64,000 nucleotides of DNA from Chloroflexota bacterium (lineage in GTDB: Bacteria; Chloroflexota; Limnocylindria; Limnocylindrales; CSP1-4). Made by a program: the position numbers and the translations under genes. Location: positions 4,578 through 68,577 of the forward strand of contig JBJOLT010000032.1 of NCBI GenBank assembly GCA_046045415.1, given 5' to 3'. The notes beneath the pieces are model-generated. The model worked only from the letters and a program-made list of their open reading frames with translations, was not told the origin of the DNA and searched no databases. This document shows positions 4,105-39,997 of the stretch, one piece after another; the first letter of the stretch is position 1, and every line of letters starts with the position of its first letter.

Positions 4105-4139
4105 CGTCTCCTCAGCGCTCGTTCAGGAGGCCGGTACGC

Positions 4140-19930: not shown

Positions 19931-19949
19931 CGGCCGCGGGCCTCCGCTG

Positions 19950-21491: not shown

Positions 21492-21495
21492 CGCG

Positions 21496-23529
21496 TCACC
21501 GCCCCACGATCGCGAGGTACGACGCCGCGACGACGATCAGGCCGACCGCGATCCCGAGCGCGTAGTTCTGGACCCGGCCGGTCTGGATCCGACGGAGCTC
21601 GCGACCGGTCGACGCGGCGAGCGTCCCGATCCCGTTCACCGTGCCGTCGACGATCGCCCGGTCGAACCACCAGAGCGAGGCCGCGACCCGCCCGCCGATC
21701 CGGATGAAGAGGAGGTCGTTCAGCTCGTCGAACCACCACTTGTTCAGCGAGGCCCGGTAGAGGAACGGGGCGCGGGCGCTCAGGGCGGCGACCCGCTCCG
21801 GCCGCGGCTCGGCGCGGATCGGTCCGAGCGAGACGCCGAAGAGCCGCCATGCGACGCCGATCGCGGTGGCCGCGAGGGCGACCGTCAGGAGGATGAGCGC
21901 GCCGTCGACGCCGAAGAGCTCGATCGGCTTCTCCACCGTCCCGAGCATCACCATCGTCTCCTCGAAGATCGGATGGAGCCAGTGGGCGATCGGCGAGTCG
22001 ACCCCGAGCGGGACCCCGAGCGCGACGCCGATCCCGGCCGAGAAGACCGCGAGGACGAGGAGCGGGACCGTCATCGAGCGGGGCGACTCGTGGATCCGCG
22101 GCTCGACCGCCGGGTCGACCCGGCTCGAGCCCCAGAACGTGAGCCCCATGAGGCGGAACATGTAGAAGGCGGTCATCGCCGCGACGACGAGCCCGATCGC
22201 CCAGACGACGTACGCGCCGTTCTTGAAGGCGACGTGGAGGATCTCGTCCTTCGAGAAGAAGCCGGCGAGCGGCGGGATCCCCGCGATCGCGAGCGAGCCG
22301 ATGAGCATCGTCGCGTACGTGATCGGGATCCGCCTCGCGAGCCCGCCCATCCGGCGCATGTCCTGCTCCTCGTGGACCGCGTGGATCACCGAGCCGGAGC
22401 CGAGGAAGAGGAGCCCCTTGAAGAAGCCGTGGGTCATCAGGTGGAAGATCGCCGCGGTCCACGCTCCGACGCCGAGCGCCGCGAACATGTAGCCGAGCTG
22501 GGAGAGAGTGGAGTAGGCGAGGACCCGCTTGATGTCCGTCTGCGTGAAGGCGATCGAGGCGGCGAGGATCGCGGTGAAGATCCCGATCGCCGCGACGATC
22601 GTCATCGCCTCCGGGCTGTGGCCGAAGAGCGGGTTGAGGCGCGCGACGAGATAGACCCCCGCGTTCACCATCGTCGCCGCGTGGATGAGCGCGGAGACCG
22701 GGGTCGGGCCCTCCATCGCGTCGGGGAGCCAGACGTGGAGCGGGAACTGGGCGCTCTTCCCCATCGCCCCCATGAAGATGAGGAGCGCGAGCCCGGTGGC
22801 GACGAGATGATCGAGCTCGTGGACCCGCTCGAGGACCTCGCGGATGTCGAGCGTCCCGAGCGTGACGAAGACCCCCATGATCCCGAGCGCGAAGCCGACG
22901 TCGCCGACCCGGTTCACGAGGAACGCCTTCTTCGCCGCGAGCGCGGCGGAGCGCTTCCGGTACCAGAAGCCGATGAGGAGGTACGAGCTGAGCCCGACGA
23001 GCTCCCAGGCGACGAAGATGACGAGGAGGCTGTCCGCGAGGACGAGGAGGAGCATCGAGAACATGAAGAGGTTCAGGTAGGCGAAGAACCGCCAGTACCC
23101 GGGGTCGTGGCTCATGTAGCCGAGCGAGTAGACGTGGACGAGCATGCCGATCGTCGTCACGACGATGAGGAGGCACGCGGTGAGGTTGTCGACGAAGAAG
23201 CCGGCGCTCACGTCGAAGTCGCCCGCCGGGATCCACTCGAAGAAGGTGATCCCGTAGCCGTGGTGGCCGAACGGGCCCGCACCGGAGATCGAGGCGACGG
23301 CGACCGCCATCGCGGCGAGCCACGAGCCGACGACCACGAGGACGGGGACGAGGCTCGCGGCCCGGATCCCGTAGCTCGCCTGGAGCCGGCGCCCGAAGAG
23401 GGCCGTGAAGGCGAAGCCGGCGATCGGCAGGAGCGCGATCAGCGGGATGAGGAGGTCGTGGATCCCGCCCGAGGCGGCCTCGGCCGTGGCCTCGGCGGCG
23501 GCGAAGAGGGTCGGGAGTCGCTCGGGCAT
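21496..23529 (-). CDS. nuoL: NADH-quinone oxidoreductase subunit L
   Basis: 677 aa, 'HVWLPDAMEGPTPVSALIHAATMVNAGVY', long C-terminal amphipathic helix region. Confidence 0.9.
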   Translation of the reverse strand: MPERLPTLFAAAEATAEAASGGIHDLLIPLIALLPIAGFAFTALFGRRLQASYGIRAASLVPVLVVVGSWLAAMAVAVASISGAGPFGHHGYGITFFEWIPAGDFDVSAGFFVDNLTACLLIVVTTIGMLVHVYSLGYMSHDPGYWRFFAYLNLFMFSMLLLVLADSLLVIFVAWELVGLSSYLLIGFWYRKRSAALAAKKAFLVNRVGDVGFALGIMGVFVTLGTLDIREVLERVHELDHLVATGLALLIFMGAMGKSAQFPLHVWLPDAMEGPTPVSALIHAATMVNAGVYLVARLNPLFGHSPEAMTIVAAIGIFTAILAASIAFTQTDIKRVLAYSTLSQLGYMFAALGVGAWTAAIFHLMTHGFFKGLLFLGSGSVIHAVHEEQDMRRMGGLARRIPITYATMLIGSLAIAGIPPLAGFFSKDEILHVAFKNGAYVVWAIGLVVAAMTAFYMFRLMGLTFWGSSRVDPAVEPRIHESPRSMTVPLLVLAVFSAGIGVALGVPLGVDSPIAHWLHPIFEETMVMLGTVEKPIELFGVDGALILLTVALAATAIGVAWRLFGVSLGPIRAEPRPERVAALSARAPFLYRASLNKWWFDELNDLLFIRIGGRVAASLWWFDRAIVDGTVNGIGTLAASTGRELRRIQTGRVQNYALGIAVGLIVVAASYLAIVGR

Positions 23530-23535
23530 CGGCCG

Positions 23536-23847
23536 CTACTCCCGCATCGAGGCGTACTCGTCGACGAGCGGCGTCCGCCGGTTCCGGTAGATCGCGATGA
23601 CGATCGCGAGCCCGACGGTCGCCTCGGCGGCCGCGACCGCCATGACGATGATCACGATGACCGCGCCCTGGCTCGCGAGCGCCGGGATGAACGCGCCGAA
23701 GGCGAGGATCGCGAGGTTGACGGCGTTCAGCATCAGCTCGATCGACATGAGCATGCTGATCGCGTTCCGGCGGGCGAGGAACCCGAACGTCCCGATCGCG
23801 AAGAGGAGCGACGCGAGGATGAGGTACGCGTCGAGCGAGTCGGTCAC
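23536..23847 (-). CDS. nuoK: NADH-quinone oxidoreductase subunit K
   Basis: 103 aa, three TM helices, 'LMSIELMLNAVNLAILAF...AAAEATVGLAIVIAIYR'. Confidence 0.9.
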   Translation of the reverse strand: MTDSLDAYLILASLLFAIGTFGFLARRNAISMLMSIELMLNAVNLAILAFGAFIPALASQGAVIVIIVMAVAAAEATVGLAIVIAIYRNRRTPLVDEYASMRE

Positions 23848-24380
23848 GCGCTCCCCTCGTCATCGCGGCGCGCGAGGAAGATCCCGCCGATGACCGCGGC
23901 GAGGAGGAGGACGCTGACGATCTCGAACGGAAGGACGAACGACTCGAAGAGCGTCCTCGCGATCTCGTTCGTCGACGCCGGGACCGCCTCGTCGACCTCG
24001 CCCCAGTCGGTCGCGACGGCGGCGAGCGCCATGACGGCGGCGAGGACGACGGCCGCGATCGCGGCCGGGATCGCCTGGGTCTGGAAGACGAGCCGAGCGG
24101 GCGCCGCCTTCGACTGGGTGAGCATGACGGCGAAGAGGATGAGGACGCTGATCGCGCCGATGTAGACGAGGACCTGCGCGGCGCCGACGAGCGGGGCGCC
24201 GAGGAGGATGTAGAGGCCGGCGAGGCCGCCGAAGCAGACGATCATCGCGAGGCCGCAGCGGATGATGTCGCGCATCGTCACGACGAGGAGGCCGGCGACG
24301 AGCATCAGCCCCGCGAACGCGAGGAAGAGGACGTCCTCCCACGGGATCCCGACGATCGGGACCGTTGCCGATAGCGCCAC
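23844..24380 (-). CDS. nuoJ: NADH-quinone oxidoreductase subunit J (deduced GTG start preceded by GAGGGAG)
   Basis: 178 aa C-terminal part of the over-extended 1193-aa ORF; 'VLFLAFAGLMLVAGLLVVTMRDIIRCGLAMIV...VLVYIGAISVLILFAVML' NuoJ-like; ATGA overlap with nuoK. Confidence 0.8.
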   Translation of the reverse strand: MALSATVPIVGIPWEDVLFLAFAGLMLVAGLLVVTMRDIIRCGLAMIVCFGGLAGLYILLGAPLVGAAQVLVYIGAISVLILFAVMLTQSKAAPARLVFQTQAIPAAIAAVVLAAVMALAAVATDWGEVDEAVPASTNEIARTLFESFVLPFEIVSVLLLAAVIGGIFLARRDDEGSA

Positions 24381-24448
24381 CCAGCTCCCTCTCTCGTGCT
24401 CAGCCGGCTCGTGCCGGTCGTCCCATCCCCGACCGGCGCTCCGGGACC

Positions 24449-27079
24449 CTACCCGTGTCCGTGCCCGTCGTGGCCCCCGTGACCGTGGCCGTTGCCGTTC
24501 GCATGGGCGTGGCCGTTGCCGCCGCCGTTCCGGGCGAAGCTCGCCGGGAGGACCGGGAGGTTCGACCCCGCGAGGGCTCGCTGCTCGCCCGACGCCCGGA
24601 GCGCCCACTGGCGCTCCCGCCGGACGTACGTCATCTCCGTCTCCTGGTCGATCCGCGCGAGGGCGAGGAGGTCGATCATCGGGTTCTCGCGGCTCTCGTG
24701 GGCGAGCTCGAAGTCGGCGCCGTCGCGGAGCGCGTCGTACGGGCAGGCGTCGACGCAGATCCCGCAGAGGATGCAGCGGCTCTCGTCGACCTCGTACTTC
24801 TGGAGGACCCGCGGCTTCGGCATGAGCGCGCCGGTCGGGCACGTCTCCGCGCACCTGCCGCACGAGACGCACGGCGTCTCGTTCAGGCTCATGTCGAGCG
24901 GCGTCGTCACGAGCGTGTCGAAGCCGATCCGCATGAAGTCGTAGCACGCGGCGCCCACCACCTCGGCGCAGACGTTCGCGCAGCGACCGCAGTCGATGCA
25001 GCGGGACGGCTCGCGGAGGATGAACGCGTGGCTGTCGTCGCGGATGTAGTCGTGGTTCTTCCCGGTGAAGCGGTTCTCCGTGACGCTCCGGTAGCCCGCC
25101 CCCTGATGGTGGCCCTTCTCGAGGGTCCGGAGCGTGGTCCCGTACTCGATGCCGAGCCGGCGGAGGTCGCAGAAGCCGATCGCCTCGCAGGTGCACTGGA
25201 GGCAGCGGGTCGACTCGGCGACCGCCTCGGCCGGGGTGTACGGCAGCTCGTACTCGACGTAGCTCCGGTTCCGGTCGTGCGCCTCCATCGCCGTCATCCG
25301 GTAGCGCGGCTCCTTCGCCTCGCTCGTGAACGGGACGATCGAGAGGAACTCCGGCTGCGGCTCGGCGAGCGTCTGGCGCGTCCGGATCGAGGCGAGGTCC
25401 GCGCCGCGGAGGTATGCGTCGACCGCGTACGCGGCGCGGCGCCCCTCGGCGATCGAGGCGACGACCGTCTGGGCGCCGGTCCGGACGTCGCCCGTCCCGA
25501 AGACGCCGGGGCGGTCGGTCGCGAACGTGACGGCGTCGGCCTTCAGCCGGCGGTTCTTCGTCGCCGTGACACCGACGCTCCCCGGGTGCTCGGCCCAGTC
25601 GAGCTCCGGCCCCTGGCCGATCGCGAGGAGGACGCGATCGCACGGGATCGTGAACTCCGTCCCCGGCGCCGGCTCCGGGCGGCGCCGGCCGGACGCGTCG
25701 GGCTCGCCGAGCTTCATCCGGATGAACTCGATCCCGGTTACCTTCCCGGACTTCTCGTCGACGATCACCCGGGTGGGGCCGGCCTGGAAGATCGCCGTCA
25801 CCCCCTCCTCGATCGCCTCGTGGACCTCGCCGGCGGCAGGCATGTCCTTCATGTCGCGCCGGTAGACGAGCGTCACCTCCTTCGCCCCCTGGCGGACGGA
25901 GGTGCGGACGCAGTCCATCGAGGTGAAGCCGCCGCCGACGACGACGACGCGGCTCCCCTTGTGGCCGGGGTACTCGAGGCCGAGCGTCGCGGTCCGGAGG
26001 TACTCGAGGCCGTCGATGACGCCGTCGGCCTCCTCGTTCGGGACGCCGAGCTTGTTCGTGTCGTAGCAGCCGATCGCGACGACGACCGCGTCGTAGCCCT
26101 GGTTCTGCAGGTCGTCGAGCGTGAAGTCGCGCCCCAGCCCCTGGTCGCAGACGATCCGGCCGCCGAGCCGGACGACGCTCTCGTACTCCGCCTCGAGGAC
26201 CTCCACCTTCGGGAGCCGGTACTGCGGGATCCCGTAGCGGAGCATCCCGCCCGGGGCGGGGTCGCGCTCGAAGACGGTGACCTCGTGCCCGCTGAGGAGC
26301 AGGTAGTAGGCGGACGACATCCCGGCCGGGCCGGAGCCGATCACCGCGACGCGGCGGCCCGTCGGCGCCTGGCGCTCGAACGGGACCGGCGGGTCGATCC
26401 CGTCGTTCAGCTGCGCCTTGAGGACCTGGTCCCCCGCGTACCGGTGGCTGTCGCGGATCGCGATCGCCTCGTCGACCTCGTCGCGCCGGCAGTGCTCCTC
26501 GCACGGGGCGGGGCAGACGCGGCCGAGCACCGACGGGAACGGGATCGTCCGCTTGAAGACCCGGGCCGACTCCCGCCAGTTCCCCTCGGCGTTCTGCTTG
26601 AGGAACCCGGGGATGTCGATGTGGCTCGGGCACTTGTTCTGGCAGGGCGGGAGGCAGTACGCGTTGTGGTCGCTGAAGATCAGCTCGAGGTTCGTCCGCC
26701 GGAGTCGGCGGACCTCCTCGGTCTGCGTGCTGACGACCATCCCCTCGGCCGCGGCGAGGGAGCAGCTGATCGGCGGGTTCTCGATCCCCTCGACCTCGAC
26801 GACGCACATCCGGCAGGCCCCGAAGCCGGGGAGCTTCGGCTCGTAGCAGAGGGTCGGGATCTCGATCCCGTTGTCGCGGCAGACCTCGAGGATCGTCTGG
26901 CCCTCGTGGCCCTCCACGACCCGGCCGTCCACCTCGATCCGGATCCGCGGCGTCGACTGCGGCCGCTGGGGCGAGACGGTGGTGAGGAGCCGCTCCGCGC
27001 GGGGGTCGGCGGCGGTCGCGGGCGCGCCGTCGCCGGTCGCCGGGGGCTGCGCGCCTGGTCGGATCAGCAGGTCGGTCAT
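24449..27079 (-). CDS. NuoG-like Fe-S subunit chimera: NuoG/HydA-type N-terminal 2Fe-2S + His/Cys cluster, complete GltD-like (glutamate-synthase small-subunit-type) FAD/NAD(P)H oxidoreductase module, three CxxCxxCxxxC(P) 4Fe-4S motifs, His/Gly/Asn-rich C-terminal tail; no molybdopterin-like domain
   Basis: 'TLCYEPKLPGFGACRMCVVEV...ISCS' (2Fe-2S); 'SDHNAYCLPPCQNKCP'; 'VCPAPCEEHC' + 'VAVIGSGPAGMSSAYYLLLSGHEVTVFERDPAPGGMLRYGIP' + 'VVVVGGGFTSMDCVRTS' (GltD Fer4_20 + two Rossmann sites); 'CIDCGRCANVCAEV', 'CVSCGRCAETCPTGAL', 'CILCGICVDACPYDAL'; tail 'NGGGNGHAHANGNGHGHGGHDGHGHG'. Confidence 0.8.
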   Translation of the reverse strand: MTDLLIRPGAQPPATGDGAPATAADPRAERLLTTVSPQRPQSTPRIRIEVDGRVVEGHEGQTILEVCRDNGIEIPTLCYEPKLPGFGACRMCVVEVEGIENPPISCSLAAAEGMVVSTQTEEVRRLRRTNLELIFSDHNAYCLPPCQNKCPSHIDIPGFLKQNAEGNWRESARVFKRTIPFPSVLGRVCPAPCEEHCRRDEVDEAIAIRDSHRYAGDQVLKAQLNDGIDPPVPFERQAPTGRRVAVIGSGPAGMSSAYYLLLSGHEVTVFERDPAPGGMLRYGIPQYRLPKVEVLEAEYESVVRLGGRIVCDQGLGRDFTLDDLQNQGYDAVVVAIGCYDTNKLGVPNEEADGVIDGLEYLRTATLGLEYPGHKGSRVVVVGGGFTSMDCVRTSVRQGAKEVTLVYRRDMKDMPAAGEVHEAIEEGVTAIFQAGPTRVIVDEKSGKVTGIEFIRMKLGEPDASGRRRPEPAPGTEFTIPCDRVLLAIGQGPELDWAEHPGSVGVTATKNRRLKADAVTFATDRPGVFGTGDVRTGAQTVVASIAEGRRAAYAVDAYLRGADLASIRTRQTLAEPQPEFLSIVPFTSEAKEPRYRMTAMEAHDRNRSYVEYELPYTPAEAVAESTRCLQCTCEAIGFCDLRRLGIEYGTTLRTLEKGHHQGAGYRSVTENRFTGKNHDYIRDDSHAFILREPSRCIDCGRCANVCAEVVGAACYDFMRIGFDTLVTTPLDMSLNETPCVSCGRCAETCPTGALMPKPRVLQKYEVDESRCILCGICVDACPYDALRDGADFELAHESRENPMIDLLALARIDQETEMTYVRRERQWALRASGEQRALAGSNLPVLPASFARNGGGNGHAHANGNGHGHGGHDGHGHG

Positions 27080-27091
27080 CGTCGGGGTCTT

Positions 27092-28414
27092 CTAGCTGCG
27101 GCCGCCCACCGGGACGGCGATCGGGCGGCAGACGCCGGCGGGGCAGGCGCTCCGCACGAGATGGTCGTCGAGCTCCGAGCGGAAGTATCGCATCCCACTC
27201 GTGAACGGGAGCGTCGCGAGCCGCTCGTGGTCGCAGAGGCCGCTCGCGCTCACGTCGTGCGCGAGGTCCTCGATGAGCGCGGGGTCGGTGGGCTTCGGCA
27301 CGCCGGTGACGATCCGCTCGCCGATCTCGTAGAGGCGGCGGAGCCCGATCCGGCAGGGGATCGTCTTCCCGCAGGCCTCGTCGGCGCAGAAGCGGGTGAG
27401 GAGCCGGGCGAGGTCGACGACGCATGCCCGCTCGTCGACCGCGACGAGCGAGCCGGAGCCGACGTGCGCACCCGCCTCCCGGAGCGGCTCGAAGTCGTAC
27501 GGCGTCGCGGCGAGCGTCGCCGGGAGGAGGCCGCCCGACGGGCCGCCGACGAGGAACGCCTTGAGGGCGTGTCCCTTCCCGGTCGCCCCGGCGAGGGCGG
27601 CGATCTCGCCGAGCGGCGTCCCGAGCGGCACCTCAGCGACCCCGGCGCCCGCCGGCGTCCGGAGCGCGACGAGCGCCGTCCCGGGGCTTGCGGACGAGCC
27701 CGTCTTCGCGAACGCGGCGGCCCCGTGGGCGAGGATCCACGAGGCGGCGGCGAGCGTCTGGACGTTCGCGACGACCGTCGGCTTCCCGAAGAGCCCGCGG
27801 ATCGCCGGGTGCGGCGGCCGCTGCTCCGGCTGGCCGCGCTTCCCCTCGAGCGCCTTCAGGAGGACGGTCTCCTCGCCGAGCATGTACGCGCCGGCGACCG
27901 GCGTGACGTGGACCGTCAGCTCGCGGCCGCTCGCGGCGTAGTCGCTCCCGAGGAGGCCCGCGTCGGTCGCGTGCCCCACCGCCGCCGTGAGCCGGCGGAC
28001 GACCTCCGTCTCCTCGGCGCGGACGGCGATCCACGCCTCGGCCGCACCGACGGCGTACGCGGCGATCGCGACGCCCTCGATGACCGCGTACGGGTTCGTC
28101 TCGAGGAGCGCACGGTCGGTCCCGGCCGCCGGGTCCGCCCCGTACCCGTTCGCGACGACGTAGCGGGTCGCGACGGGCTGGGTGGCGCAGACGCGCCACT
28201 TCTCCGCGGCGGGGAAGCCGGCGCCGCCGCGACCGCGGAGCCGCGCCTCGGCGACGACGGCGATCGTCCCCTCCGGCCCGAGCCCCACCGCCGCACGGAG
28301 GCCGGCGAACGCGCCGGCTGCGACGGCGGCGTCGAGGTCGGTGGGGTCGGCGGGCGTGGCGGCCGGGAGGAGGATCCGCGGCCACGCGGCGGGGGTCGGG
28401 AGGATCGTCGTCAC
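27092..28414 (-). CDS. nuoF: NADH-quinone oxidoreductase subunit F-like (51-kDa flavoprotein), divergent (GTG start)
   Basis: 'LRGRGGAGFPAAEKW', 'AGAYMLGEETVLLKALEGKRGQP', 'ACGKTIPCRIG' and 'SGLCDHE' align to the NuoF FMN/NADH and N3 regions. Confidence 0.8.
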   Translation of the reverse strand: MTTILPTPAAWPRILLPAATPADPTDLDAAVAAGAFAGLRAAVGLGPEGTIAVVAEARLRGRGGAGFPAAEKWRVCATQPVATRYVVANGYGADPAAGTDRALLETNPYAVIEGVAIAAYAVGAAEAWIAVRAEETEVVRRLTAAVGHATDAGLLGSDYAASGRELTVHVTPVAGAYMLGEETVLLKALEGKRGQPEQRPPHPAIRGLFGKPTVVANVQTLAAASWILAHGAAAFAKTGSSASPGTALVALRTPAGAGVAEVPLGTPLGEIAALAGATGKGHALKAFLVGGPSGGLLPATLAATPYDFEPLREAGAHVGSGSLVAVDERACVVDLARLLTRFCADEACGKTIPCRIGLRRLYEIGERIVTGVPKPTDPALIEDLAHDVSASGLCDHERLATLPFTSGMRYFRSELDDHLVRSACPAGVCRPIAVPVGGRS

Positions 28415-29071
28415 TCAGCGGCCCCCGAGCGCGGCGTCGAGGGCGCCGACGTAGGCGGCCTCGGTCGGGCGGAGCGCGGCCGCCGCCGGCGCCGCACCGC
28501 TCGCGGCCGTCGGCGGCTCGAGGCGGAGGTGCCGGTAGTAGGTGGCGGTGCCGTAGATCATCGCGTACCAGGCGCCGGTCCGGTGGCTGATCCGCTTGAG
28601 CGCGGCGACCGGGAGGTAGCCGTACGCCGCCTGGACCCCCTCGAGGATCGGGAGGAGCGCCTTCGGGTCCTCGCCGTGCTCCTCGAGGACGCGGTCGACG
28701 TCGGCGAGGTCGATCGGCTCGAAGCGGACGTACGCCGGGTCGGGGACCGGGCGGCCGGAGCGGCGGAGCGCCGATTCCTCTCGCCGCTCGGCGTACGTCT
28801 CGGTCGCGCCCCAGTGGACGTGGTAGCGGCCCTTCGTGTCGACGCCGCCCATGTCGATGCACTCGATCGGGCAGGCCTGCGCGCACTGGAAGCAGGTCTC
28901 GCACTTCAGCGTCCCGAACTCGTCGTAGAGGAGCTGGAGCCGCCCGCGGAAGCGGACCGCCTCGTCGGGCGCCACCTCCGGGTAGCGGACGGTGATCTTC
29001 GGCGCGAAGAAGCGCCGGAGGGTGAGCGCCATCCCCCTGACGATCCCGAGGCCGGGCACGAGGCTCATCAT
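28415..29071 (-). CDS. 218-aa chimera: NuoI-like N-terminal half (one CxxCxxCxxxCP motif only) fused to a NuoE-like N-terminal helical region lacking the 2Fe-2S thioredoxin-like domain
   Basis: 'MALTLRRFFAPKITVRYPEV...VRFRGRLQL...KCETCFQCAQACPIECI' is NuoI-like; no second Cys motif; 'ALLPILEGVQAAYGYLPVAALKRISHRTGAWYAMIYGTATYY' matches the NuoE helical region (LLPILHxxQExxGYLP...VYGVATFY) but no Cys follows; ATGA/adjacent coupling to nuoH and nuoF. Confidence 0.7.
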   Translation of the reverse strand: MMSLVPGLGIVRGMALTLRRFFAPKITVRYPEVAPDEAVRFRGRLQLLYDEFGTLKCETCFQCAQACPIECIDMGGVDTKGRYHVHWGATETYAERREESALRRSGRPVPDPAYVRFEPIDLADVDRVLEEHGEDPKALLPILEGVQAAYGYLPVAALKRISHRTGAWYAMIYGTATYYRHLRLEPPTAASGAAPAAAALRPTEAAYVGALDAALGGR

Positions 29072-30414
29072 CCCCTCCCGTTCACGACGACGATCGCGGC
29101 GGCGGTCACGAAGAGGTTGAGGAGCGCCGCGGGGGTGAGCCACTTCCAGGCGAACCCCATGAGCTGGTCGATCCGGACCCGCGGGAGCGTCCCGCGCATC
29201 CAGACGAAGATGAACACGAAGACGTACGACTTGACGAAGAACCAGAGGAGGCCGATCACCCAGTCGAGGCTCACGACCGCGAGGCCGAGGACGCCGGCGA
29301 CGGCGACGAGGTTGAAGAGGACGAAGCCGATGACGAGCGCCCGGACGAGCGAGACGCGGCTGTCGAGCATCCAGAACGGGAGCGCGAGCCCGACGATCGC
29401 GAGCGGCGGGACGACGAGGAGGAGCGCGAGGAGGCCGATCCCGAGCGAGCCCGGGTCGAGCGCCACAGAGACCGGGAAGGGCCAGTCGAACGGGGCCGTC
29501 CAGCCGCCGAAGAAGAGCGTCACGGCGAGCGCCGAGACGATGAAGACGTTCACGTACTCGGCGAAGAAGAAGAAGCCGAAGCGCATCCCGGAGTACTCGG
29601 TCGCGAAGCCGGCGACGATCTCCGAGTCCGCCTCGGTCAGGTCGAACGGGGTCCGGTTCGCCTCCGCCGTCGCGGCGATGAAGAAGATGAGGAAGCCGAG
29701 CGGCTGGCGCCAGACGTTCCAGTCGAGGATCGAGCCGGACTGCATCTCGACGATCGCGTTCAGGCTCATCGTCCCCGCGAGGAGGATGAGGCCGACGACC
29801 GAGAGCGTGAGCGGGATCTCGTAGCTGACGACCTGGGCGGCCGCCCGGAGCCCGCCGATGAGCGAGTACTTGTTGTAGCTCGCCCAGCCGGCCATGAGGA
29901 GGCCGACGACGCTCAGCCCCCCGATCGCGAAGAAGTAGAGGAGCCCGATGTTGAAGTCCTGGCCGAAGAGGCCGGGCGCGAACGGGATGACCATCATCGT
30001 CATCACGCACGAGAGGAACGTGACGACCGGCGCCCACGTGAAGACGAGGCCGTCGGCGCCCGTCGGGGTGAAGTCCTCCTTCACGAGCACCTTCAGCCCG
30101 TGGTTCACCGACATGAGCGACCCGAACGGCCCGACCCGGTCCGGCCCGATCCGAAGGTTGATCAGCGCGATCACCTTCATCTCCATGTAGATGATGAGGA
30201 AGGCGGTCGGGACGCTCAGGAGGAGGACGGCGGTCGCCGCGACGACGAAGCGGATGATCGGGAGGTTCGCGAGGAGCGCCTCGAGGATCGTCCCGCCGAG
30301 GAGCGCGATCACCGCGACGAGCGAGGCGGTCACCGCGAGCAGGACGGGGACCGCGACGAAGACGACCTTCCCCGGGAGCGTGAGGCGGCTCCAGGCGCGG
30401 GAGGCGACCGTCAC
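29068..30414 (-). CDS. nuoH: NADH-quinone oxidoreductase subunit H (deduced GTG start overlapping nuoD stop)
   Basis: 448 aa, 'GLLYFFAIGGLSVVGLLMAGWASYNKYSLIGGLRAAAQVVSYEIPL', 'EADSEIVAGFATEYSGMRFGFFFFAEY' NuoH hallmarks. Confidence 0.85.
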   Translation of the reverse strand: MTVASRAWSRLTLPGKVVFVAVPVLLAVTASLVAVIALLGGTILEALLANLPIIRFVVAATAVLLLSVPTAFLIIYMEMKVIALINLRIGPDRVGPFGSLMSVNHGLKVLVKEDFTPTGADGLVFTWAPVVTFLSCVMTMMVIPFAPGLFGQDFNIGLLYFFAIGGLSVVGLLMAGWASYNKYSLIGGLRAAAQVVSYEIPLTLSVVGLILLAGTMSLNAIVEMQSGSILDWNVWRQPLGFLIFFIAATAEANRTPFDLTEADSEIVAGFATEYSGMRFGFFFFAEYVNVFIVSALAVTLFFGGWTAPFDWPFPVSVALDPGSLGIGLLALLLVVPPLAIVGLALPFWMLDSRVSLVRALVIGFVLFNLVAVAGVLGLAVVSLDWVIGLLWFFVKSYVFVFIFVWMRGTLPRVRIDQLMGFAWKWLTPAALLNLFVTAAAIVVVNGRG

Positions 30415-31652
30415 TTGTCGATCCCTCCCATGATCGGGTCGAGCGACGCCATCACCGCCATCGTGTCGGCGACGAGGTTCCCCGGCATGAGGAGCGGGAC
30501 GAGCTGGAGGTGGACGAACGACGGGTCGTGGATCTTCAGCCGGAACGGCTGGTCGGTCCCGTCGCTGATCGCGTGCATCCCGTAGACGCCGCGCGGCCCC
30601 TCGACCGCCCCCCACGCGCGACCGGGCCGCGGCCGGAGGAGGCGGGGGAGCTTCGCCATGACCGGCCCGTCCGGCATCTCGTGGAGGCACTGGTCGATGA
30701 TCCGGAGGCTCTGGCGGACCTCGTCCATCCGGAGGAGGTAGCGCGCGAGGCAGTCCCCCTCGCTCCGGGTGGGGATGTCGAACTCGAGCTCCGGGTAGAC
30801 CGAGTACGGGTGCGCGCGCCGGAGGTCGAACGGGACGCCGGTGGAGCGGAGGTTCGGCCCGGTGACGCACATCCGGATCGCCGTCTCGCGGTCGATCGTC
30901 CCGAGGCCGCGCATCCGGCGGACGAAGATCTCGTTCTCGTTCAGGAGCCCGAGGTTCGCCTCGATCTGGCTGCCGGCCCGCGTCATCCACTCGCCGAGGC
31001 GGCTCATGAACTCGTGGTTCAGGTCGCCGTTGACGCCGCCGATCCGGAAGTAGTTGAAGAGCATCCGCTGGCCCGTGAGGGCCGCGAGCATCTCCACGAT
31101 CTCGTCGCGCTCGATGAAGCTGTAGAGGATCGGGGTGAGGCCGCCGAGATCGAGCGCCATCCAGCCCATGAAGAGCGCGTGACTCTGGATCCGGAGGAGC
31201 TCGGTCGAGAGGACCCGGATGTACTCGGCGCGGCGCGGCACCTCGACGTCGAGGAGCTTCTCGAAGGCTATCACCGCCGCCCACTCGCTGAAGAGCGAGC
31301 TGACGTACTCGAGCGGGTCGACCTGGCTGATGCACTGGTGGTAGTCGGCGTTCTCGCAGAGCTTCTCCACCCCGCGGTGGAGGTAGCCGAGGACCGGGTC
31401 GATGTCGATGACCTGCTCGCCGTTCAGCTTGAGGACGACCCTGAGGACGCCGTGCGTCGAGGGGTGCTGCGGCCCCATGTTGATGAACATCTCGCCGTCG
31501 CCGAGCGTGTAGAACTCGGCTTCCCGCTCGGTCCGCGGCGGGTACGGCGGGACCGGCTCGAAGACGCCGATCTCGGCGTCGAGCGTCACGCGCGGGTCGT
31601 CGGCCGACTGGTGCGCCGGCATCTCGTACGGGGTGTGCGGCCCGGCCGTCAT
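30411..31652 (-). CDS. nuoD: NADH-quinone oxidoreductase subunit D (49-kDa)
   Basis: 'FINMGPQHPSTHGVLRVVLKLNGEQV', 'DPVLGYLHRGVEKLCE', C-terminal 'RLKIHDPSFVHLQ' blocks; starts at MTAGPHT (ATGA overlap with nuoC). Confidence 0.9.
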   Translation of the reverse strand: MTAGPHTPYEMPAHQSADDPRVTLDAEIGVFEPVPPYPPRTEREAEFYTLGDGEMFINMGPQHPSTHGVLRVVLKLNGEQVIDIDPVLGYLHRGVEKLCENADYHQCISQVDPLEYVSSLFSEWAAVIAFEKLLDVEVPRRAEYIRVLSTELLRIQSHALFMGWMALDLGGLTPILYSFIERDEIVEMLAALTGQRMLFNYFRIGGVNGDLNHEFMSRLGEWMTRAGSQIEANLGLLNENEIFVRRMRGLGTIDRETAIRMCVTGPNLRSTGVPFDLRRAHPYSVYPELEFDIPTRSEGDCLARYLLRMDEVRQSLRIIDQCLHEMPDGPVMAKLPRLLRPRPGRAWGAVEGPRGVYGMHAISDGTDQPFRLKIHDPSFVHLQLVPLLMPGNLVADTMAVMASLDPIMGGIDK

Positions 31653-32197
31653 GCGCCGATCCTTCGGACGACCGCGTCCGCCGCCGTGTTCGTCGGCACC
31701 TGCGGCTGCTCGATGTGGCGGACCCCGCCGCCGGGCGAGCGCGCCGCGTCGTCCGGGAGGTGGAAGTCCTTCCGGAGCGGGAAGCTCCGGTACTCGGGCG
31801 GCATGTAGATCCGGCGGAGGTCGCGGTTCCCCTCGAACACGATGCCGAACATGTCGTACGTCTCGCGCTCCATCCACTCGGCGCCCTTCCAGAGGAACGT
31901 CACCGAGGGGATGCGGGGCTCGTCGCGGGGGAGCTCCACCGCGATCACCCGGAGCCAGTCCGGCGAGGCGGGGCTCCAGAGGTGGTACGTGACCTGGAGC
32001 GTCGTCCCGGTGTCGACGCCGCAGAGGTCGGCGAGCATCTGGAAGCGGAGCTCGGGATCCTCGGCGAGGATCCGCATCACGTCCGGGACGTCCGCCGGCC
32101 GGACCCTGATCTCCGTCTCGTCATGGCGCTGGCGGACGGGGCCGACGAGCCGGTCGCCGAGGCTCGCCCCGAGTCGGCGCCGCAGGGCGCGGTCCAT
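31649..32197 (-). CDS. nuoC: NADH-quinone oxidoreductase subunit C (30-kDa)
   Basis: 182 aa, 'LADLCGVDTG...VTYHLWS', 'WKGAEWMERETYDMFGIVFEGNRDLRRI'. Confidence 0.85.
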   Translation of the reverse strand: MDRALRRRLGASLGDRLVGPVRQRHDETEIRVRPADVPDVMRILAEDPELRFQMLADLCGVDTGTTLQVTYHLWSPASPDWLRVIAVELPRDEPRIPSVTFLWKGAEWMERETYDMFGIVFEGNRDLRRIYMPPEYRSFPLRKDFHLPDDAARSPGGGVRHIEQPQVPTNTAADAVVRRIGA

Positions 32198-32200
32198 CGG

Positions 32201-32905
32201 TCAGACGCCCTCCGGGACGGTCGGGCCGACGGGCTTCTCCGCCCACTGGCCGCGGCGGTCCTTGACGATCTGCTGGAGCTTCATCATCCCGTAGATCAGC
32301 CCCTCGGGACGCGGCGGGCAGCCGGGGATGTAGACGTCGACCGGCATCACCCGGTCGATCCCCTCGATCGTCGAGTAGCTCCGCTTGTAGCGGCCGCCGG
32401 AGCACGTGCAGTCGCCCATCGCGACGCACCACTTGGGCTCCGGCATCTGCTCCCAGAGGCGGACGAGCGGCCCGGCCATCTTCGTCGTCAGCGTCCCCGC
32501 CACGATGAGGACGTCGGCCTGTCGCGGGCTCGCGCGGAAGGGGAACATCCCCCAGCGGTCCATGTCGTTCTTCGAGGTCGCCGCCGACATCATCTCGATC
32601 GCGCAGCACGCGAGGCCCGAGAGGAGCGGCCAGAGGCTGTTCATCCGGATGAGGTCGAGGACGTAGTCCGCCTTCGTCGGGATCACCTCGAGCGCGCCGC
32701 CCCAGCGGGCGTCGTCCTTCCGCTCGAGACCGGCGAGCTCCACCTGGCGGAGGTGGGTGACGTCCGATCCCGCCCCGCCCTGGTAGGCGAGCGGGTCGGT
32801 CGACGCCCAGAGGGTGTTCGGGACGACGATCGGCTCGACGAGCGCGTCCGACTCGCGGACGACGAGCGCCCCCGGGATCTCGCCGCCCCCGTCGCCCGGC
32901 CTCAC
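32201..32905 (-). CDS. nuoB: NADH-quinone oxidoreductase subunit B (deduced GTG start overlapping nuoA stop)
   Basis: 'SLWPLLSGLACCAIEMM', 'KWCVAMGDCTCSGGRY', 'VDVYIPGCPPRPE' (N2 cluster Cys set). Confidence 0.85.
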   Translation of the reverse strand: MRPGDGGGEIPGALVVRESDALVEPIVVPNTLWASTDPLAYQGGAGSDVTHLRQVELAGLERKDDARWGGALEVIPTKADYVLDLIRMNSLWPLLSGLACCAIEMMSAATSKNDMDRWGMFPFRASPRQADVLIVAGTLTTKMAGPLVRLWEQMPEPKWCVAMGDCTCSGGRYKRSYSTIEGIDRVMPVDVYIPGCPPRPEGLIYGMMKLQQIVKDRRGQWAEKPVGPTVPEGV

Positions 32906-33345
32906 CGCCACGACAGGACCCCCTTCCGCCACGCGTACGCCAGCCCGAGGAGGAGGATCGCGACGAAGACGAGCATCGTCACGAAGCCCGCGAGGAGGAG
33001 CTCCGGGAAGACCGTCGCCCAGAGGTAGATGAAGATCACCTCGATGTCGAAGGCGACGAAGAGCAGGGCGTAGATGTAGAACGAGACGCCGTACCTGCCG
33101 TGGGTGTCGCCGAACGTGTCGATCCCCGACTCGTACGGGAGCCCCTTGTGCGGGTCGCCCTTCACGCGGTGCGAGAGCAGCCACGCGGCGGCGATCGTGA
33201 GGAAGACGAACGAGACGCCGGCGAAGGCGAACCCGACGACGTACCAGATGCCGGTCAAGCGTTCCTCGCTCTCGAAGGGGCGGGGGCGATGGCGGGCGCG
33301 ACGGGCGGCCGGGACGAGCGCGGTCGGCGTCGCACGCTCGCGCAT
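32902..33345 (-). CDS. nuoA: NADH-quinone oxidoreductase subunit A (start uncertain: ATG at 33345 or later)
   Basis: Three-helix membrane protein 'GIWYVVGFAFAGVSFVFLTIAAAWLLS...DTFGDTHGRYGVSFYIYALLFVAFDIEVIFIYLWA'. Confidence 0.75.
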   Translation of the reverse strand: MRERATPTALVPAARRARHRPRPFESEERLTGIWYVVGFAFAGVSFVFLTIAAAWLLSHRVKGDPHKGLPYESGIDTFGDTHGRYGVSFYIYALLFVAFDIEVIFIYLWATVFPELLLAGFVTMLVFVAILLLGLAYAWRKGVLSWR

Positions 33346-39782: not shown

Positions 39783-39997
39783 CCTGGCCACCCTCCATCG
39801 GCCGGCGTGACGCCGGCGCTCCACGTCCCGTCCCTCGCACCGAGTATAGCGCCGGACCCGACCCGTCCCGACCGGACCGACCGGGTGCCGCGACGCCGGC
39901 GACCGGGCCGCGGCCGCGTGGCATACTCGGCCCCGCACGCCGCCCGCCCGGATGCGGGCCCGCGACGCCGCCGGGACGCGGCGCCTGGAGAGAGATC

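What the first reader, a model, noticed from the sequence alone, without database searches (positions are those of the whole stretch)
27092..28414. NuoF-like subunit with altered N3 cysteine set and non-canonical NADH-site residues
By manual alignment the N3 motif reads CGKTIPC, where canonical NuoF has CGKCTPC. The middle Cys is replaced by Thr. The fourth Cys (SGLCDHE) is present. The NAD(H)-contact segment that is normally CNADESEPGTFKDR reads ANGYGADPAAGTDR. The FMN-site Gly-rich loop GRGGAGFP and the EETxLLxxLEGKRG block are conserved. Taken with the neighbouring chimeras, the whole N-module looks remodelled.
Basis: partly seen in the sequence, partly recalled or inferred. Interest (0 to 1): 0.55.

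Follow-up and report, generated by a model that had tools for sequence, protein, structure and literature searches.

The report
Remodelled complex I flavoprotein subunit
This gene encodes the flavoprotein subunit of an unusual respiratory complex I, shared by a whole class of soil and freshwater Chloroflexota, whose electron-input module descends from an NADPH-linked transhydrogenase and in which one of the four cysteines that normally hold a conserved iron-sulfur cluster has been replaced.

Summary
ORF 27092-28414 (-) is a 440-aa NuoF-type protein. Every alignment, including an HMM built from 90 canonical relatives, puts Thr351 on the second N3 cysteine (CGKTIPC). The NADE(G/S)(D/E)PG loop reads NGYGADP.

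Both features are invariant or nearly so in more than 120 protein clusters and in about 500 matches in species-representative genomes, almost all Ca. Limnocylindria. This is a selected state, not decay or sequencing error.

The protein is closest in sequence and predicted fold to the B subunit of Nfn/Stn-type Bfu transhydrogenases, not to complex I NuoF. It keeps their Cys3His zinc site and GGPSG motif.

It sits in a fully syntenic nuo operon:
- NuoI is split.
- NuoE is cut down to a cysteine-free N-domain.
- The NuoG-like subunit carries an inserted GltD FAD/NADPH module.

Sister clades have the same operon but four N3 cysteines, so the loss is derived. It coincides with the change C-G-L-G to C-D-H-E after the fourth cysteine.

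My best reading is a retained but re-ligated N3, either [3Fe-4S] or 3Cys+His/Asp [4Fe-4S]. It would lie on a side branch of a complex I fed mainly through GltD. Cluster type and substrate are untested.

The parts
27092..28414 (-). NuoF-like / Bfu-B-like flavoprotein subunit, 440 aa, GTG start
   Evidence: Pfam Complex1_51K plus NADH_4Fe-4S. TIGR01959 scores 323.8 bits, below its 558.65 cutoff. Best solved relatives are NfnB 9n5u_B, 9bov_B, HydB and StnB. The AF2 model has pLDDT 89, and Foldseek ranks NfnB first at TM 0.92.
27353..27373 (-). N3/B1 cluster motif C348-G-K-T351-I-P-C354, with the second ligand Cys replaced by Thr
   Evidence: Alignments. T in 116 and S in 3 of 120 relatives. Coordinates checked.
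27224..27235 (-). Fourth N3 ligand C394 followed by family-fixed D395-H396-E397, where canonical sequences have G-L-G
   Evidence: Family-fixed versus canonical-conserved comparison. H396 is shared with the nearest 4-Cys sister P0121. D395 and E397 are unique to the Thr351 family.
27386..27388 (-). Cys343, five residues before the first N3 Cys; 99% conserved in the family and a candidate substitute ligand
   Evidence: Cys also occurs at this position in 12 of 130 canonical 4-Cys relatives, so it is not specific to the loss.
28112..28150 (-). Nicotinamide-side loop NGYGADPAAGTDR. Relative to NfnB: Asp195 to Tyr91, Glu196 to Gly92, and the AFM motif reads A-G-T
   Evidence: N89, Y91, A93 and D94 are invariant across the family and the Ktedonobacteraceae-containing sister clade.
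28214..28234 (-). Gly-rich FMN loop GRGGAGF
   Evidence: Invariant.
27806..27877 (-). GEETVLLKALEGKRGQPEQRPPHP loop. E182 matches NfnB E286, R199 matches R303, and H202 stands where Nqo1 has Phe205
   Evidence: Most conserved stretch of the protein. Residue roles are from PMC12018979 and PMC11677225.
27128..27424 (-). Span holding the four ligands of the Bfu-type Cys3His metal (Zn) site: C331 (27422-27424), H418 (27161-27163), C424 and C429 (27128-27145). This span also contains the N3 motifs listed separately.
   Evidence: They align with T. sibiricus NfnB C437, H524, C529 and C534 (PMC12018979). All four are invariant.
28415..29071 (-). Chimera: NuoI N-terminal half (first CxxCxxCxxxCP at 28868-28903) fused to a cysteine-free NuoE N-terminal helical domain (28475-28669). 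No N1a site.
   Evidence: NCBIfam NuoI positions 1-66 of 121, and Pfam 2Fe-2S_thioredx positions 2-63 of 145 only. Sequence. Syntenic in the related loci.
24449..27079 (-). NuoG-N [2Fe-2S] + GltD (2x[4Fe-4S], FAD, NAD(P)H site) + CxxCxCx5C + 2x[4Fe-4S] + NuoI C-terminal half (second CxxCxxCxxxCP at 24740-24775) + His/Gly-rich tail
   Evidence: Pfam and NCBIfam. Best solved relatives are Nfn-ABC A subunit 9bov_A, StnC 8oh5_C and NfnA 9n5u_A. All Cys motifs and the GGGxxxxD...YRR nucleotide motif are conserved in 63 orthologues.
29068..33260 (-). Upstream nuo genes: nuoH (29068 to about 30330), nuoD (30411 to about 31650), nuoC (31649-32200), nuoB (32201 to about 32770), nuoA (about 32900-33260)
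   Evidence: Translations, GC3 frame analysis, synteny. Starts are approximate.
18464..24380 (-). Downstream nuo genes: nuoJ (23844 to about 24380), nuoK (23536-23859), nuoL (21496-23535), nuoM (19950-21536), nuoN (18464-20017)

Best explanation
The ORF encodes the flavoprotein (B/NuoF-type) subunit of a remodelled complex I input module. That module descends from the Nfn/Stn branch of the Bfu transhydrogenase family, not from canonical NuoEFG. It is fixed across Ca. Limnocylindria.

Main electron path (inferred). The principal NAD(P)H entry point is probably the FAD/GltD domain inserted into the NuoG-like subunit. Its Fe-S chain is physically stapled to the Q-module through a NuoI that is split between two fusion proteins.

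Position of the F-like subunit (inferred). By homology with solved Stn and Nfn structures, it sits at the end of a side branch: FMN, then N3/B1, then the N-terminal NuoG-type clusters. The bifurcation apparatus is gone: the C1, B3, B4 and B5 sites are absent and the AFM/Phe signature is lost.

N3 site. The cluster has been re-ligated rather than lost. Cys348, Cys354 and Cys394 are invariant. The second ligand is Thr or Ser. The turn after the fourth Cys changed from G-L-G to D-H-E. The site most likely holds a [3Fe-4S] cluster, which is the classic outcome of removing the middle Cys of CxxCxxC. The alternative is a [4Fe-4S] cluster with His396, Asp395 or, less likely, Cys343 as the fourth ligand.

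Flavin pocket. It keeps the phosphate, ribityl and adenosine contacts but has Tyr and Gly in place of the acidic Asp-Glu pair beside the isoalloxazine. I infer that it still binds FMN and a dinucleotide, with altered redox and kinetic behaviour, as an accessory input and not the main one.

Shown versus inferred. Shown: the sequence states, their conservation, the synteny, the homology and the order of events. Inferred: cofactor occupancy, cluster nuclearity, electron routing and substrate preference.
For: Three-Cys site:
- Confirmed by pairwise, MSA and profile alignments.

Purifying selection:
- C348, C354 and C394 are 100% conserved, T351 is T in 116 and S in 3 of 120, and NGYGADP is invariant.
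- The C-terminal cluster domain and the GEET...RPP.P loop are the best-conserved parts of the protein.
- N89, Y91, A93, D94, E181-E182, R199, the two Gly pairs of GGPSGG (G290-G291, G294-G295) and the Gly loop stay invariant across two clades that are only about 37% identical.

Bfu ancestry:
- Best sequence hits are NfnB, Nfn-ABC B, HydB and StnB.
- Best fold hits are the same proteins, at TM 0.92 and rmsd 1.5 A.
- The Zn-site ligands map exactly onto NfnB C437, H524, C529 and C534.
- The partner subunit matches Nfn-ABC A, StnC and NfnA through the GltD insertion.

Operon:
- The nuo order with split NuoI is conserved in 52 of 52 full loci and in sister clades.

Derived state:
- Sisters P0121, P0129, P0132 and the P0168 clade (119 of 119) keep CGKC.
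- G395D and G397E arise together with C351T.

Accessory role:
- The F-like protein is the least conserved in the operon: 67.6% mean identity, against 82% for the GltD fusion and 83-87% for NuoD and NuoB.
- N1a is absent.
- In Stn and Nfn, B1 and FMN lie at the end of the chain that starts at FAD (PMC10482914; PMC12018979).

Precedent:
- Non-Cys ligands occur in this enzyme family: Lys or Glu on the FAD-proximal cluster.

Fold:
- AF2 with 72 sequences predicts an intact four-helix-bundle cluster domain (pLDDT 80-90).
Against: No cofactor was observed.

The F-like subunit evolves fastest in the operon. NuoE lost its cluster, and a second lineage (P0126) independently replaced the same Cys with Ala while keeping C-G-L. 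That pattern also fits gradual loss of redox function on a dispensable branch.

Several adenine- and nicotinamide-side residues are changed: Nqo1 F78, F205, E95 and D94. NADH binding could therefore be lost.

The routing of electrons from GltD to NuoI without passing N3 is inferred from homologous structures that lack a NuoI partner.

The tree that orders the events is a simple NJ tree without support values.
Confidence: 0.55

Rival explanations
1. Structural relic. The F-like subunit no longer carries a functional N3 cluster, and perhaps no FMN. It is kept only as a scaffold that holds the NuoE-N/NuoI-N chimera and the GltD fusion together. All electrons enter through GltD.
For: - Lowest conservation in the operon.
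- N1a lost.
- N3 ligand lost twice independently in this operon type.
- Acidic flavin-side residues and two adenine-stacking aromatics replaced.
- In Stn, a whole branch of clusters is kept only for stability.
Against: - The three remaining N3 Cys, the Gly-rich loop, GEET...RPP.P, E182, R199 and GGPSG are invariant across hundreds of genomes and across clades about 37% identical.
- The replacement residues themselves (Y91, T/S351, D395, H396, E397) are fixed, not drifting.
- A pure scaffold would not need these surface-pocket residues.
Confidence: 0.2
2. Ligand swap to an ordinary all-cysteine [4Fe-4S]. Cys343, five residues upstream of the first ligand, has taken over from the lost second Cys. 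N3 would then be chemically normal.
For: Cys343 is 99% conserved in the family. Within the remodelled clade it occurs only where C351 is lost; the sisters have M, L or S there.
Against: - Cys at this position also occurs in 12 of 130 canonical relatives that already have four ligands. It is therefore tolerated there without being a ligand.
- Fragments with T351 but L or S at 343 exist (P0186, P0188).
- The concerted G-L-G to D-H-E change is not explained.
Confidence: 0.15
3. Ordinary complex I NuoF with neutral sequence variation: a standard NADH:quinone oxidoreductase.
For: The protein lies in a 14-function nuo operon, is annotated as NuoF by JGI and NCBI, and has the NuoF Pfam domains.
Against: - It scores far below the NuoF equivalog cutoffs.
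- It is closer to Bfu B subunits.
- A defining ligand and the NADE loop are missing.
- NuoE, NuoG and NuoI are all rearranged.
Confidence: 0.03
4. Electron-bifurcating or confurcating Nuo-Bfu complex that oxidises NADH and ferredoxin together, as proposed for Geobacter, Planctomycetes and Nitrospirae.
For: Bfu ancestry of the module. Nuo-Bfu has been proposed in the literature (PMC9304861).
Against: - No N-terminal [2Fe-2S] domain and no C-terminal 2x[4Fe-4S] ferredoxin domain in the B subunit (440 aa).
- No C1 cluster in the C-type subunit.
- The AFM and Phe281 signature of bifurcating members is lost.
Confidence: 0.03
5. Artefact: a sequencing or assembly error, a pseudogene or a misalignment creates an apparent Cys-to-Thr change.
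For: None found.
Against: The ORF is intact with strong coding GC3. The same state is seen in 119 of 120 independent clusters and in about 500 genome matches. Three alignment methods agree.
Confidence: 0.01

Closest known systems
B subunit of Nfn/Stn-type Bfu transhydrogenases (T. sibiricus NfnB 9n5u_B, C. saccharolyticus Nfn-ABC 9bov_B, S. ovata StnB 8oh5_B)
   Same: - Best sequence match (E about 1e-96) and best fold match (TM 0.92, rmsd 1.5 A).
- Rossmann-like FMN domain, ubiquitin-like domain and four-helix bundle.
- Cys3His Zn site, GGPSG loop, and Glu/Arg contacts for adenosine and phosphate.
- Partner A subunit with a GltD insertion.
   Different: [quoted passage not shown]
- B1/N3 has three Cys.
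- Asp195 is Tyr, Glu196 is Gly, and AFM and Phe281 are lost.
- The partner C subunit has no [2Fe-2S].
- Encoded inside a nuo operon and tethered to NuoI halves, not a soluble enzyme.
Canonical complex I NuoF / Nqo1 / NDUFV1 (TIGR01959)
   Same: Same two Pfam domains. Same position in a nuo operon next to E- and G-type genes. Tyr at the Nqo1 Tyr180 position. Similar length and no extra domains.
   Different: - Scores 324 bits against a 559-bit cutoff.
- Three instead of four N3 Cys.
- NGYGADP instead of NADESEPG.
- Carries a Bfu Zn site that complex I NuoF lacks.
Nuo-Bfu complexes predicted by Schut et al. 2022 (PMC9304861)
   Same: A Bfu-derived module replaces NuoEFG in the middle of a nuo gene cluster.
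   Different: Those keep the full bifurcating BfuBC core, with B2-B5 and C1, and have no GltD domain. The survey selected BfuB proteins by a ferredoxin domain that this protein lacks. No split NuoI was described there.
[3Fe-4S] sites created by loss of the middle Cys of CxxCxxC (FrdB/SdhB, NarH FS4, medial cluster of [NiFe] hydrogenases, 7Fe ferredoxins, DmsB C102 variants)
   Same: Same sequence signature: C-x-x-X-x-x-C plus one remote Cys. The site sits as a relay in an Fe-S chain. This comparison rests on my own knowledge of those families.
   Different: Never reported for N3/B1 as far as I could find. Here there is an extra Asp-His-Glu next to the remote Cys. Nuclearity is untested.
Non-Cys ligated [4Fe-4S] next to FAD in StnC/NfnA (Lys) and NfnL (Glu)
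   Same: Precedent within the same enzyme lineage for 3Cys+X clusters that tune potential.
   Different: A different cluster and subunit. In this window that Lys position is itself His212 in the GltD fusion.

Membership tests
NuoF / Nqo1 (complex I 51-kDa subunit, TIGR01959 equivalog) | Complex1_51K FMN domain plus NADH_4Fe-4S domain | tested here: met
   Pfam E 7.7e-37 and 1.1e-18, both above gathering scores.
NuoF / Nqo1 (complex I 51-kDa subunit, TIGR01959 equivalog) | Score at or above the curated equivalog cutoff | tested here: not met
   TIGR01959 323.8 against 558.65. NF010120 247 against 389. NF008436 226 against 749.
NuoF / Nqo1 (complex I 51-kDa subunit, TIGR01959 equivalog) | Four Cys ligands of cluster N3 (CxxCxxC ... 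C) | tested here: not met
   Thr351 sits on the second Cys state in pairwise, MSA and profile alignments.
NuoF / Nqo1 (complex I 51-kDa subunit, TIGR01959 equivalog) | NADE(S/G)(E/D)PG(T/A)F(K/M)DR loop at the nicotinamide/flavin face | tested here: not met
   Reads NGYGADPAAGTDR. Only N, the second acidic residue (D94), P and the final DR are kept.
NuoF / Nqo1 (complex I 51-kDa subunit, TIGR01959 equivalog) | Encoded in a nuo operon beside E- and G-type subunits | tested here: met
   nuoA-B-C-D-H-[I'/E']-F'-[G'/GltD/'I]-J-K-L-M-N, with the E, G and I genes rearranged.
NuoF / Nqo1 (complex I 51-kDa subunit, TIGR01959 equivalog) | Binds FMN and oxidises NADH | not testable with these tools
   Only conservation of the Gly loop, K72, E181/E182, R199 and Y177 can be shown.
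Bfu family B subunit (HydB/NfnB/StnB) | Closest in sequence and fold to solved BfuB cores | tested here: met
   Top 9 PDB sequence hits and top 14 Foldseek hits are BfuB chains.
Bfu family B subunit (HydB/NfnB/StnB) | Cys3His site at the B2 position (Zn or [2Fe-2S]) | tested here: met
   C331, H418, C424 and C429 align with NfnB C437, H524, C529 and C534 and are invariant. The fifth Cys of the NiFe enzyme (C476) aligns with V369, so the site is Zn-type.
Bfu family B subunit (HydB/NfnB/StnB) | GGPSG loop | tested here: met
   G290-G-P-S-G294; the Gly positions are invariant and P292 and S293 at least 90% conserved.
Bfu family B subunit (HydB/NfnB/StnB) | AFM motif and Phe281, the signature of bifurcating members | tested here: not met
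   The motif reads A97-G98-T99 (the middle position varies across the family) and Tyr177 stands at the Phe281 position.
Bfu family B subunit (HydB/NfnB/StnB) | N-terminal thioredoxin-like domain (B5) and C-terminal 2x[4Fe-4S] ferredoxin domain (B3, B4) | tested here: not met
   The 440-aa protein aligns only to NfnB residues 117-538. There are no Fer4 or thioredoxin-like Pfam hits.
Bfu family B subunit (HydB/NfnB/StnB) | Partner C subunit with the C1 [2Fe-2S] cluster | tested here: not met
   The NuoE-like part covers only Pfam positions 2-63 of 145 and contains no Cys.
Nfn/Stn subtype of Bfu | A subunit with a GltD (FAD/NADPH) domain inserted after the N-terminal [2Fe-2S] domain | tested here: met
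   The downstream gene matches 9bov_A (E 3e-161), StnC (2e-144) and NfnA (8e-140) through that architecture. FAD and NAD(P)H motifs are conserved.
[3Fe-4S]-type binding site | CxxXxxC plus one remote Cys, with a non-ligand at the middle position | tested here: met
   C348-x2-T351-x2-C354 ... C394.
[3Fe-4S]-type binding site | Cluster is actually trinuclear | not testable with these tools
   Needs EPR, Mossbauer or a structure. D395, H396, E397 or C343 could supply a fourth ligand.
Nuo-Bfu (Schut et al. 2022) | Complete bifurcating BfuBC core within a nuo cluster | tested here: not met
   The core is truncated. Definition from PMC9304861.

The most novel reading that the evidence does not exclude
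An entire class of abundant aerobic Chloroflexota (Ca. Limnocylindria), and in 4-Cys form other Chloroflexota including Ktedonobacteraceae, respire with a previously undescribed type of complex I. Its features would be:
- an N-module that is a domesticated, non-bifurcating Nfn/Stn transhydrogenase;
- NADPH, with or without NADH, entering through a GltD FAD site;
- a NuoI that is split and used as a tether;
- no N1a;
- in Limnocylindria, an N3 converted to a [3Fe-4S] or His/Asp-ligated cluster next to a Tyr-capped flavin.

This would be the first natural complex I with a non-all-Cys N3, and the first whose primary donor is NADPH.
Probability: 0.35. Interest if true: 0.85.

Novelty: new variant of a known kind. 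Interest (0 to 1): 0.62.

Why it matters
Cluster N3 and the NuoF flavin site are among the most invariant features of complex I. They are central to how the enzyme takes electrons from NADH and how it makes reactive oxygen species. A natural, class-wide variant with three N3 cysteines and a Tyr/Gly flavin face has three uses:
- It is a ready-made experiment on what those residues do.
- It shows that the N-module can be replaced wholesale by a transhydrogenase-derived NADPH module.
- It would change how respiratory capacity is inferred for Limnocylindria and other Chloroflexota from metagenomes. Earlier surveys scored many Chloroflexi as lacking NuoG.

The same enzyme also offers a route to test whether complex I can be driven by NADPH.

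Tried and rejected
1. Cys343 as the fifth ligand of the B2 cluster. I first thought Cys343 might be the 'semi-conserved' fifth ligand of the B2 [2Fe-2S] cluster of NiFe-HydB (Cys476). Residue offsets place Cys476 opposite Val369 instead, so I dropped the idea.

2. First AF2 run (22 sequences). It gave pLDDT below 50 for the whole cluster domain and for the 92-96 loop. This looked like disorder but was an artefact of MSA depth. With 72 sequences the domain is confident. Neither run gives coordinates or metals, so ligand geometry could not be measured.

3. tblastn against PLSDB plasmids, looking for a cultured carrier such as a Thermomicrobia megaplasmid. Only canonical NuoF or Bfu relatives at 42% identity or less turned up.

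4. Literature searches. I searched for Limnocylindria with complex I, GltD with Nuo, and N3 with 3Fe-4S. None described this architecture. The nearest items were:
- Nuo-Bfu;
- mbx-like operons with a GltD-type subunit;
- Nitrospina NUO-2;
- a remark that Chloroflexi often 'lack only NuoG'.

5. Long + strand ORFs over the locus, such as 24365-29824, are high-GC artefacts.

6. I could not check whether the same genomes also carry a canonical nuoEFG set.
Full report
**What is at the coordinates.** The window is about 73% G+C, so all six frames carry long spurious ORFs. Codon-position GC singles out the minus-strand ORF 27092-28414 (GC3 0.97) as one of a run of minus-strand genes. Its 440-aa product has the two NuoF Pfam domains (Complex1_51K, NADH_4Fe-4S). 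It reaches only 323.8 bits on the NuoF equivalog TIGR01959, whose cutoff is 558.65.

**The observation.**
- phmmer against all PDB chains aligns CADEACGKTIPCRIG with ..ESCGKC(T/P)xCR.G of three Bfu B subunits, and SGLCDHE with S.LCGLG.
- A MAFFT alignment with 150 representatives from a 1.8-billion-protein library gives the same register.
- So does an HMM built only from 90 relatives with a canonical N3 and a canonical NADE loop.
- Three of the four N3 positions are therefore Cys (C348, C354, C394) and the second is Thr351.
- The loop that is NADE(G/S)(D/E)PGxF(K/M)DR in relatives reads NGYGADPAAGTDR.
- GRGGAGF and GEETVLLKALEGKRG are intact.
- Coordinates of all motifs were checked by translation.

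**Not noise.** A search of 5.8 billion proteins returned at least 120 clusters at 67-96% identity.
- 116 have EACGKTIPC and 3 have EACGKSIPC.
- All have C394 followed by D-H.
- NGYGADP is invariant.
- Seven of the eight Cys in the protein are at least 99% conserved.
- A pattern scan of one genome per GTDB species found 508 matching stretches. The best 80 are nearly all labelled Ca. Limnocylindrales/Limnocylindria or generic Chloroflexota MAGs. A few carry other labels (Methylomirabilota, Verrucomicrobiia), which I take to be binning noise.

**Context.** The gene lies in a nuo operon on the minus strand, in this order:
1. nuoA, nuoB, nuoC, nuoD and nuoH.
2. A 218-aa chimera: the NuoI N-half with the first CxxCxxCxxxCP, fused to a Cys-free NuoE N-domain.
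3. The F-like gene.
4. An 876-aa fusion: [2Fe-2S] NuoG N-domain, GltD with two [4Fe-4S] and the FAD and NAD(P)H motifs, three further [4Fe-4S] motifs, the NuoI C-half with the second CxxCxxCxxxCP, and a His/Gly-rich tail.
5. nuoJ, nuoK, nuoL, nuoM and nuoN.

The two NuoI pieces match positions 1-66 and 71-116 of the 121-position NuoI model. The order is identical in 52 of 52 related loci long enough to show it. All Cys motifs and the nucleotide motifs of the GltD fusion are conserved in 63 orthologues.

**Ancestry.**
- The best solved relatives of the F-like protein are T. sibiricus NfnB, C. saccharolyticus Nfn-ABC B, HydB and S. ovata StnB, at 313-327 bits. Mycobacterial NuoF scores 266 and E. 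coli or Thermus NuoF 218-226.
- An AF2 model built on 72 sequences has pLDDT 89. It superposes best on the same Nfn B subunits (TM 0.92, rmsd 1.5 A) and less well on complex I NuoF (TM 0.82-0.88).
- C331, H418, C424 and C429 align residue for residue with the Cys3His zinc site of NfnB (C437, H524, C529, C534; PMC12018979). They are invariant. Among the 130 relatives with a canonical N3, 87 show the same pattern.
- The GGPSG loop and the residues equivalent to NfnB Glu286 (adenosine ribose) and Arg303 (beta-phosphate) are kept.
- The downstream fusion matches Nfn-ABC A, StnC and NfnA through the GltD insertion.

The module is therefore a cut-down Nfn/Stn-type Bfu module. It has lost everything that defines bifurcating members:
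- the N- and C-terminal cluster domains of B;
- the [2Fe-2S] of C;
- the AFM/Phe281 signature.

**Order of events.** Representatives at 43-54% identity sit in the same operon type, with a split NuoI and a GltD fusion (L081, L084, L085, L087).
- P0121 is the nearest sister. It keeps CGKCIPC and has C-G-H after the fourth Cys.
- P0129, P0132 and the large P0168 clade keep CGKCVPC in 119 of 119 sequences. The P0168 clade includes a Ktedonobacteraceae MAG. These groups already read NAY(D/G)A(D) in the loop.
- Tyr-for-Asp beside the flavin is therefore an old, shared character of the remodelled clade. It is invariant across clades only about 37% identical.
- The Cys-to-Thr change is a later, Limnocylindria-specific step.
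- P0126 has CGKAVPC with C-G-L. On a simple NJ tree this looks like a second, independent loss (no support values).
- A comparison of family-fixed against canonical-conserved positions shows that C351T comes with G395D and G397E, next to a pre-existing L396H, plus S347A and P401T. The turn after the fourth ligand went from C-G-L-G to C-D-H-E.

**Interpretation of N3.** Three observations argue against an empty site:
- the three remaining Cys are invariant;
- a hydroxyl residue is fixed at the lost position;
- the cluster domain is highly conserved and confidently predicted.

Loss of the middle Cys of CxxCxxC is the textbook signature of [3Fe-4S] sites (FrdB/SdhB, NarH, [NiFe]-hydrogenase medial cluster; from my own knowledge). 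Alternatively, the new Asp-His-Glu next to C394 could supply a fourth ligand. Precedents are:
- 3Cys+Lys or Glu clusters in this same enzyme lineage;
- tandem ligands, which occur in cluster N2 (from my own knowledge).

Cys343 is another candidate. However, Cys occurs at that position in 12 of 130 relatives that already have four ligands. I cannot discriminate between these without a structure or spectroscopy.

**Interpretation of the flavin site.**
- The kept residues are the ones that hold FMN and the ADP part of NAD(H).
- The changed ones face the isoalloxazine and nicotinamide: NfnB Asp195, said to stabilise the semiquinone, is Tyr; Glu196 is Gly; Nqo1 Phe205 is His.
- Both the kept and the changed residues are invariant. 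I therefore infer a working but retuned flavin site, not a dead one.

**Role in the complex.** In Stn and Nfn, electrons run from FAD through the GltD clusters and the NuoG-type clusters to B1 and then FMN. B1 and FMN are the far end of that chain, and a second, vestigial branch leaves the NuoG-type junction. In this operon the NuoG-type domain is covalently continued by the NuoI C-half. The simplest wiring is therefore FAD, then the GltD clusters, then the junction, then NuoI, N2 and quinone. The F-like subunit would sit on a side branch. Two observations fit an accessory role:
- the F-like protein is the least conserved in the operon (67.6% mean identity, against 82% for the GltD fusion and 83-87% for NuoD and NuoB);
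- N1a has been lost.

This routing is inference from homologous structures.

**Literature.** I found no description of this architecture or of a three-Cys N3.
- Schut et al. proposed Nuo-Bfu complexes with a full bifurcating core in other phyla.
- Degli Esposti noted GltD-type subunits in mbx-like operons.
- Spero et al. noted many Chloroflexi genomes with 13 of 14 nuo genes, 'missing only NuoG'. This fusion probably explains that.

**Verdict.** It is a new variant of known kinds (complex I and Bfu/Nfn), fixed in a large uncultured lineage. Mechanism is assigned at moderate confidence.

Noticed in passing
28415-29071 (-) and 24449-24800 (-): NuoI is split between two genes. Its N-half is fused to a Cys-free NuoE N-domain. 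Its C-half forms the C-terminus of the GltD fusion. The two halves match NuoI model positions 1-66 and 71-116. N6a and N6b would have to assemble in trans.
   Followed up: partly
24449-24529 (-): A His/Gly-rich C-terminal tail (NGGGNGHAHANGNGHGHGGHDGHGHG) ends the GltD/NuoI fusion. It is poorly conserved in orthologues. It may bind metal or may be low-complexity drift.
   Followed up: no
about 26444-26446 (-), His212 of the GltD fusion: StnC Lys170 ligates the FAD-proximal [4Fe-4S] and is said to be strictly conserved in StnC. The equivalent position here is an invariant His. The StnC Cys114 position is Ile156. The neighbouring subunit therefore also has a non-canonical cluster ligand.
   Followed up: partly
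L085:8793-10166 (protein P0126): A second lineage with the same operon type has Ala at the lost N3 Cys position (CGKAVPC) but keeps C-G-L after the fourth Cys. This looks like an independent loss.
   Followed up: partly
L081:9156-10001: In the nearest 4-Cys sister the NuoI/NuoE chimera is longer (281 aa) and keeps a Cys-bearing NuoE C-domain (CRCPAC ... C). The N1a-type site therefore seems to have been lost stepwise. L084 has already lost it while keeping four N3 Cys.
   Followed up: partly
L087:8746-13774: In the P0168 clade, nuoB, the I/E chimera, the F-like gene and the GltD fusion form a four-gene cluster away from the other nuo genes.
   Followed up: no
18464-33260 (-): Conservation across the operon is uneven. 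NuoB averages 87%, NuoD 83% and the GltD fusion 82%, while the F-like protein averages 67.6% and is the lowest. In canonical complex I, NuoF is among the best conserved subunits.
   Followed up: yes
24365-29824 (+): An 1819-aa open frame lies antisense to four nuo genes. It is an artefact of 73% G+C, because its GC3 pattern is not that of a coding frame.
   Followed up: yes
3978-9353 (+): A 1791-aa ORF has protein-O-mannosyltransferase (PMT) domains only in its last third. The first 1000 or so residues have no Pfam match.
   Followed up: no
38235-39938 (-): purH (AICARFT/IMPCHase) lies upstream of the nuo operon, both here and in the sister locus L081. This indicates a conserved chromosomal neighbourhood.
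   Followed up: no
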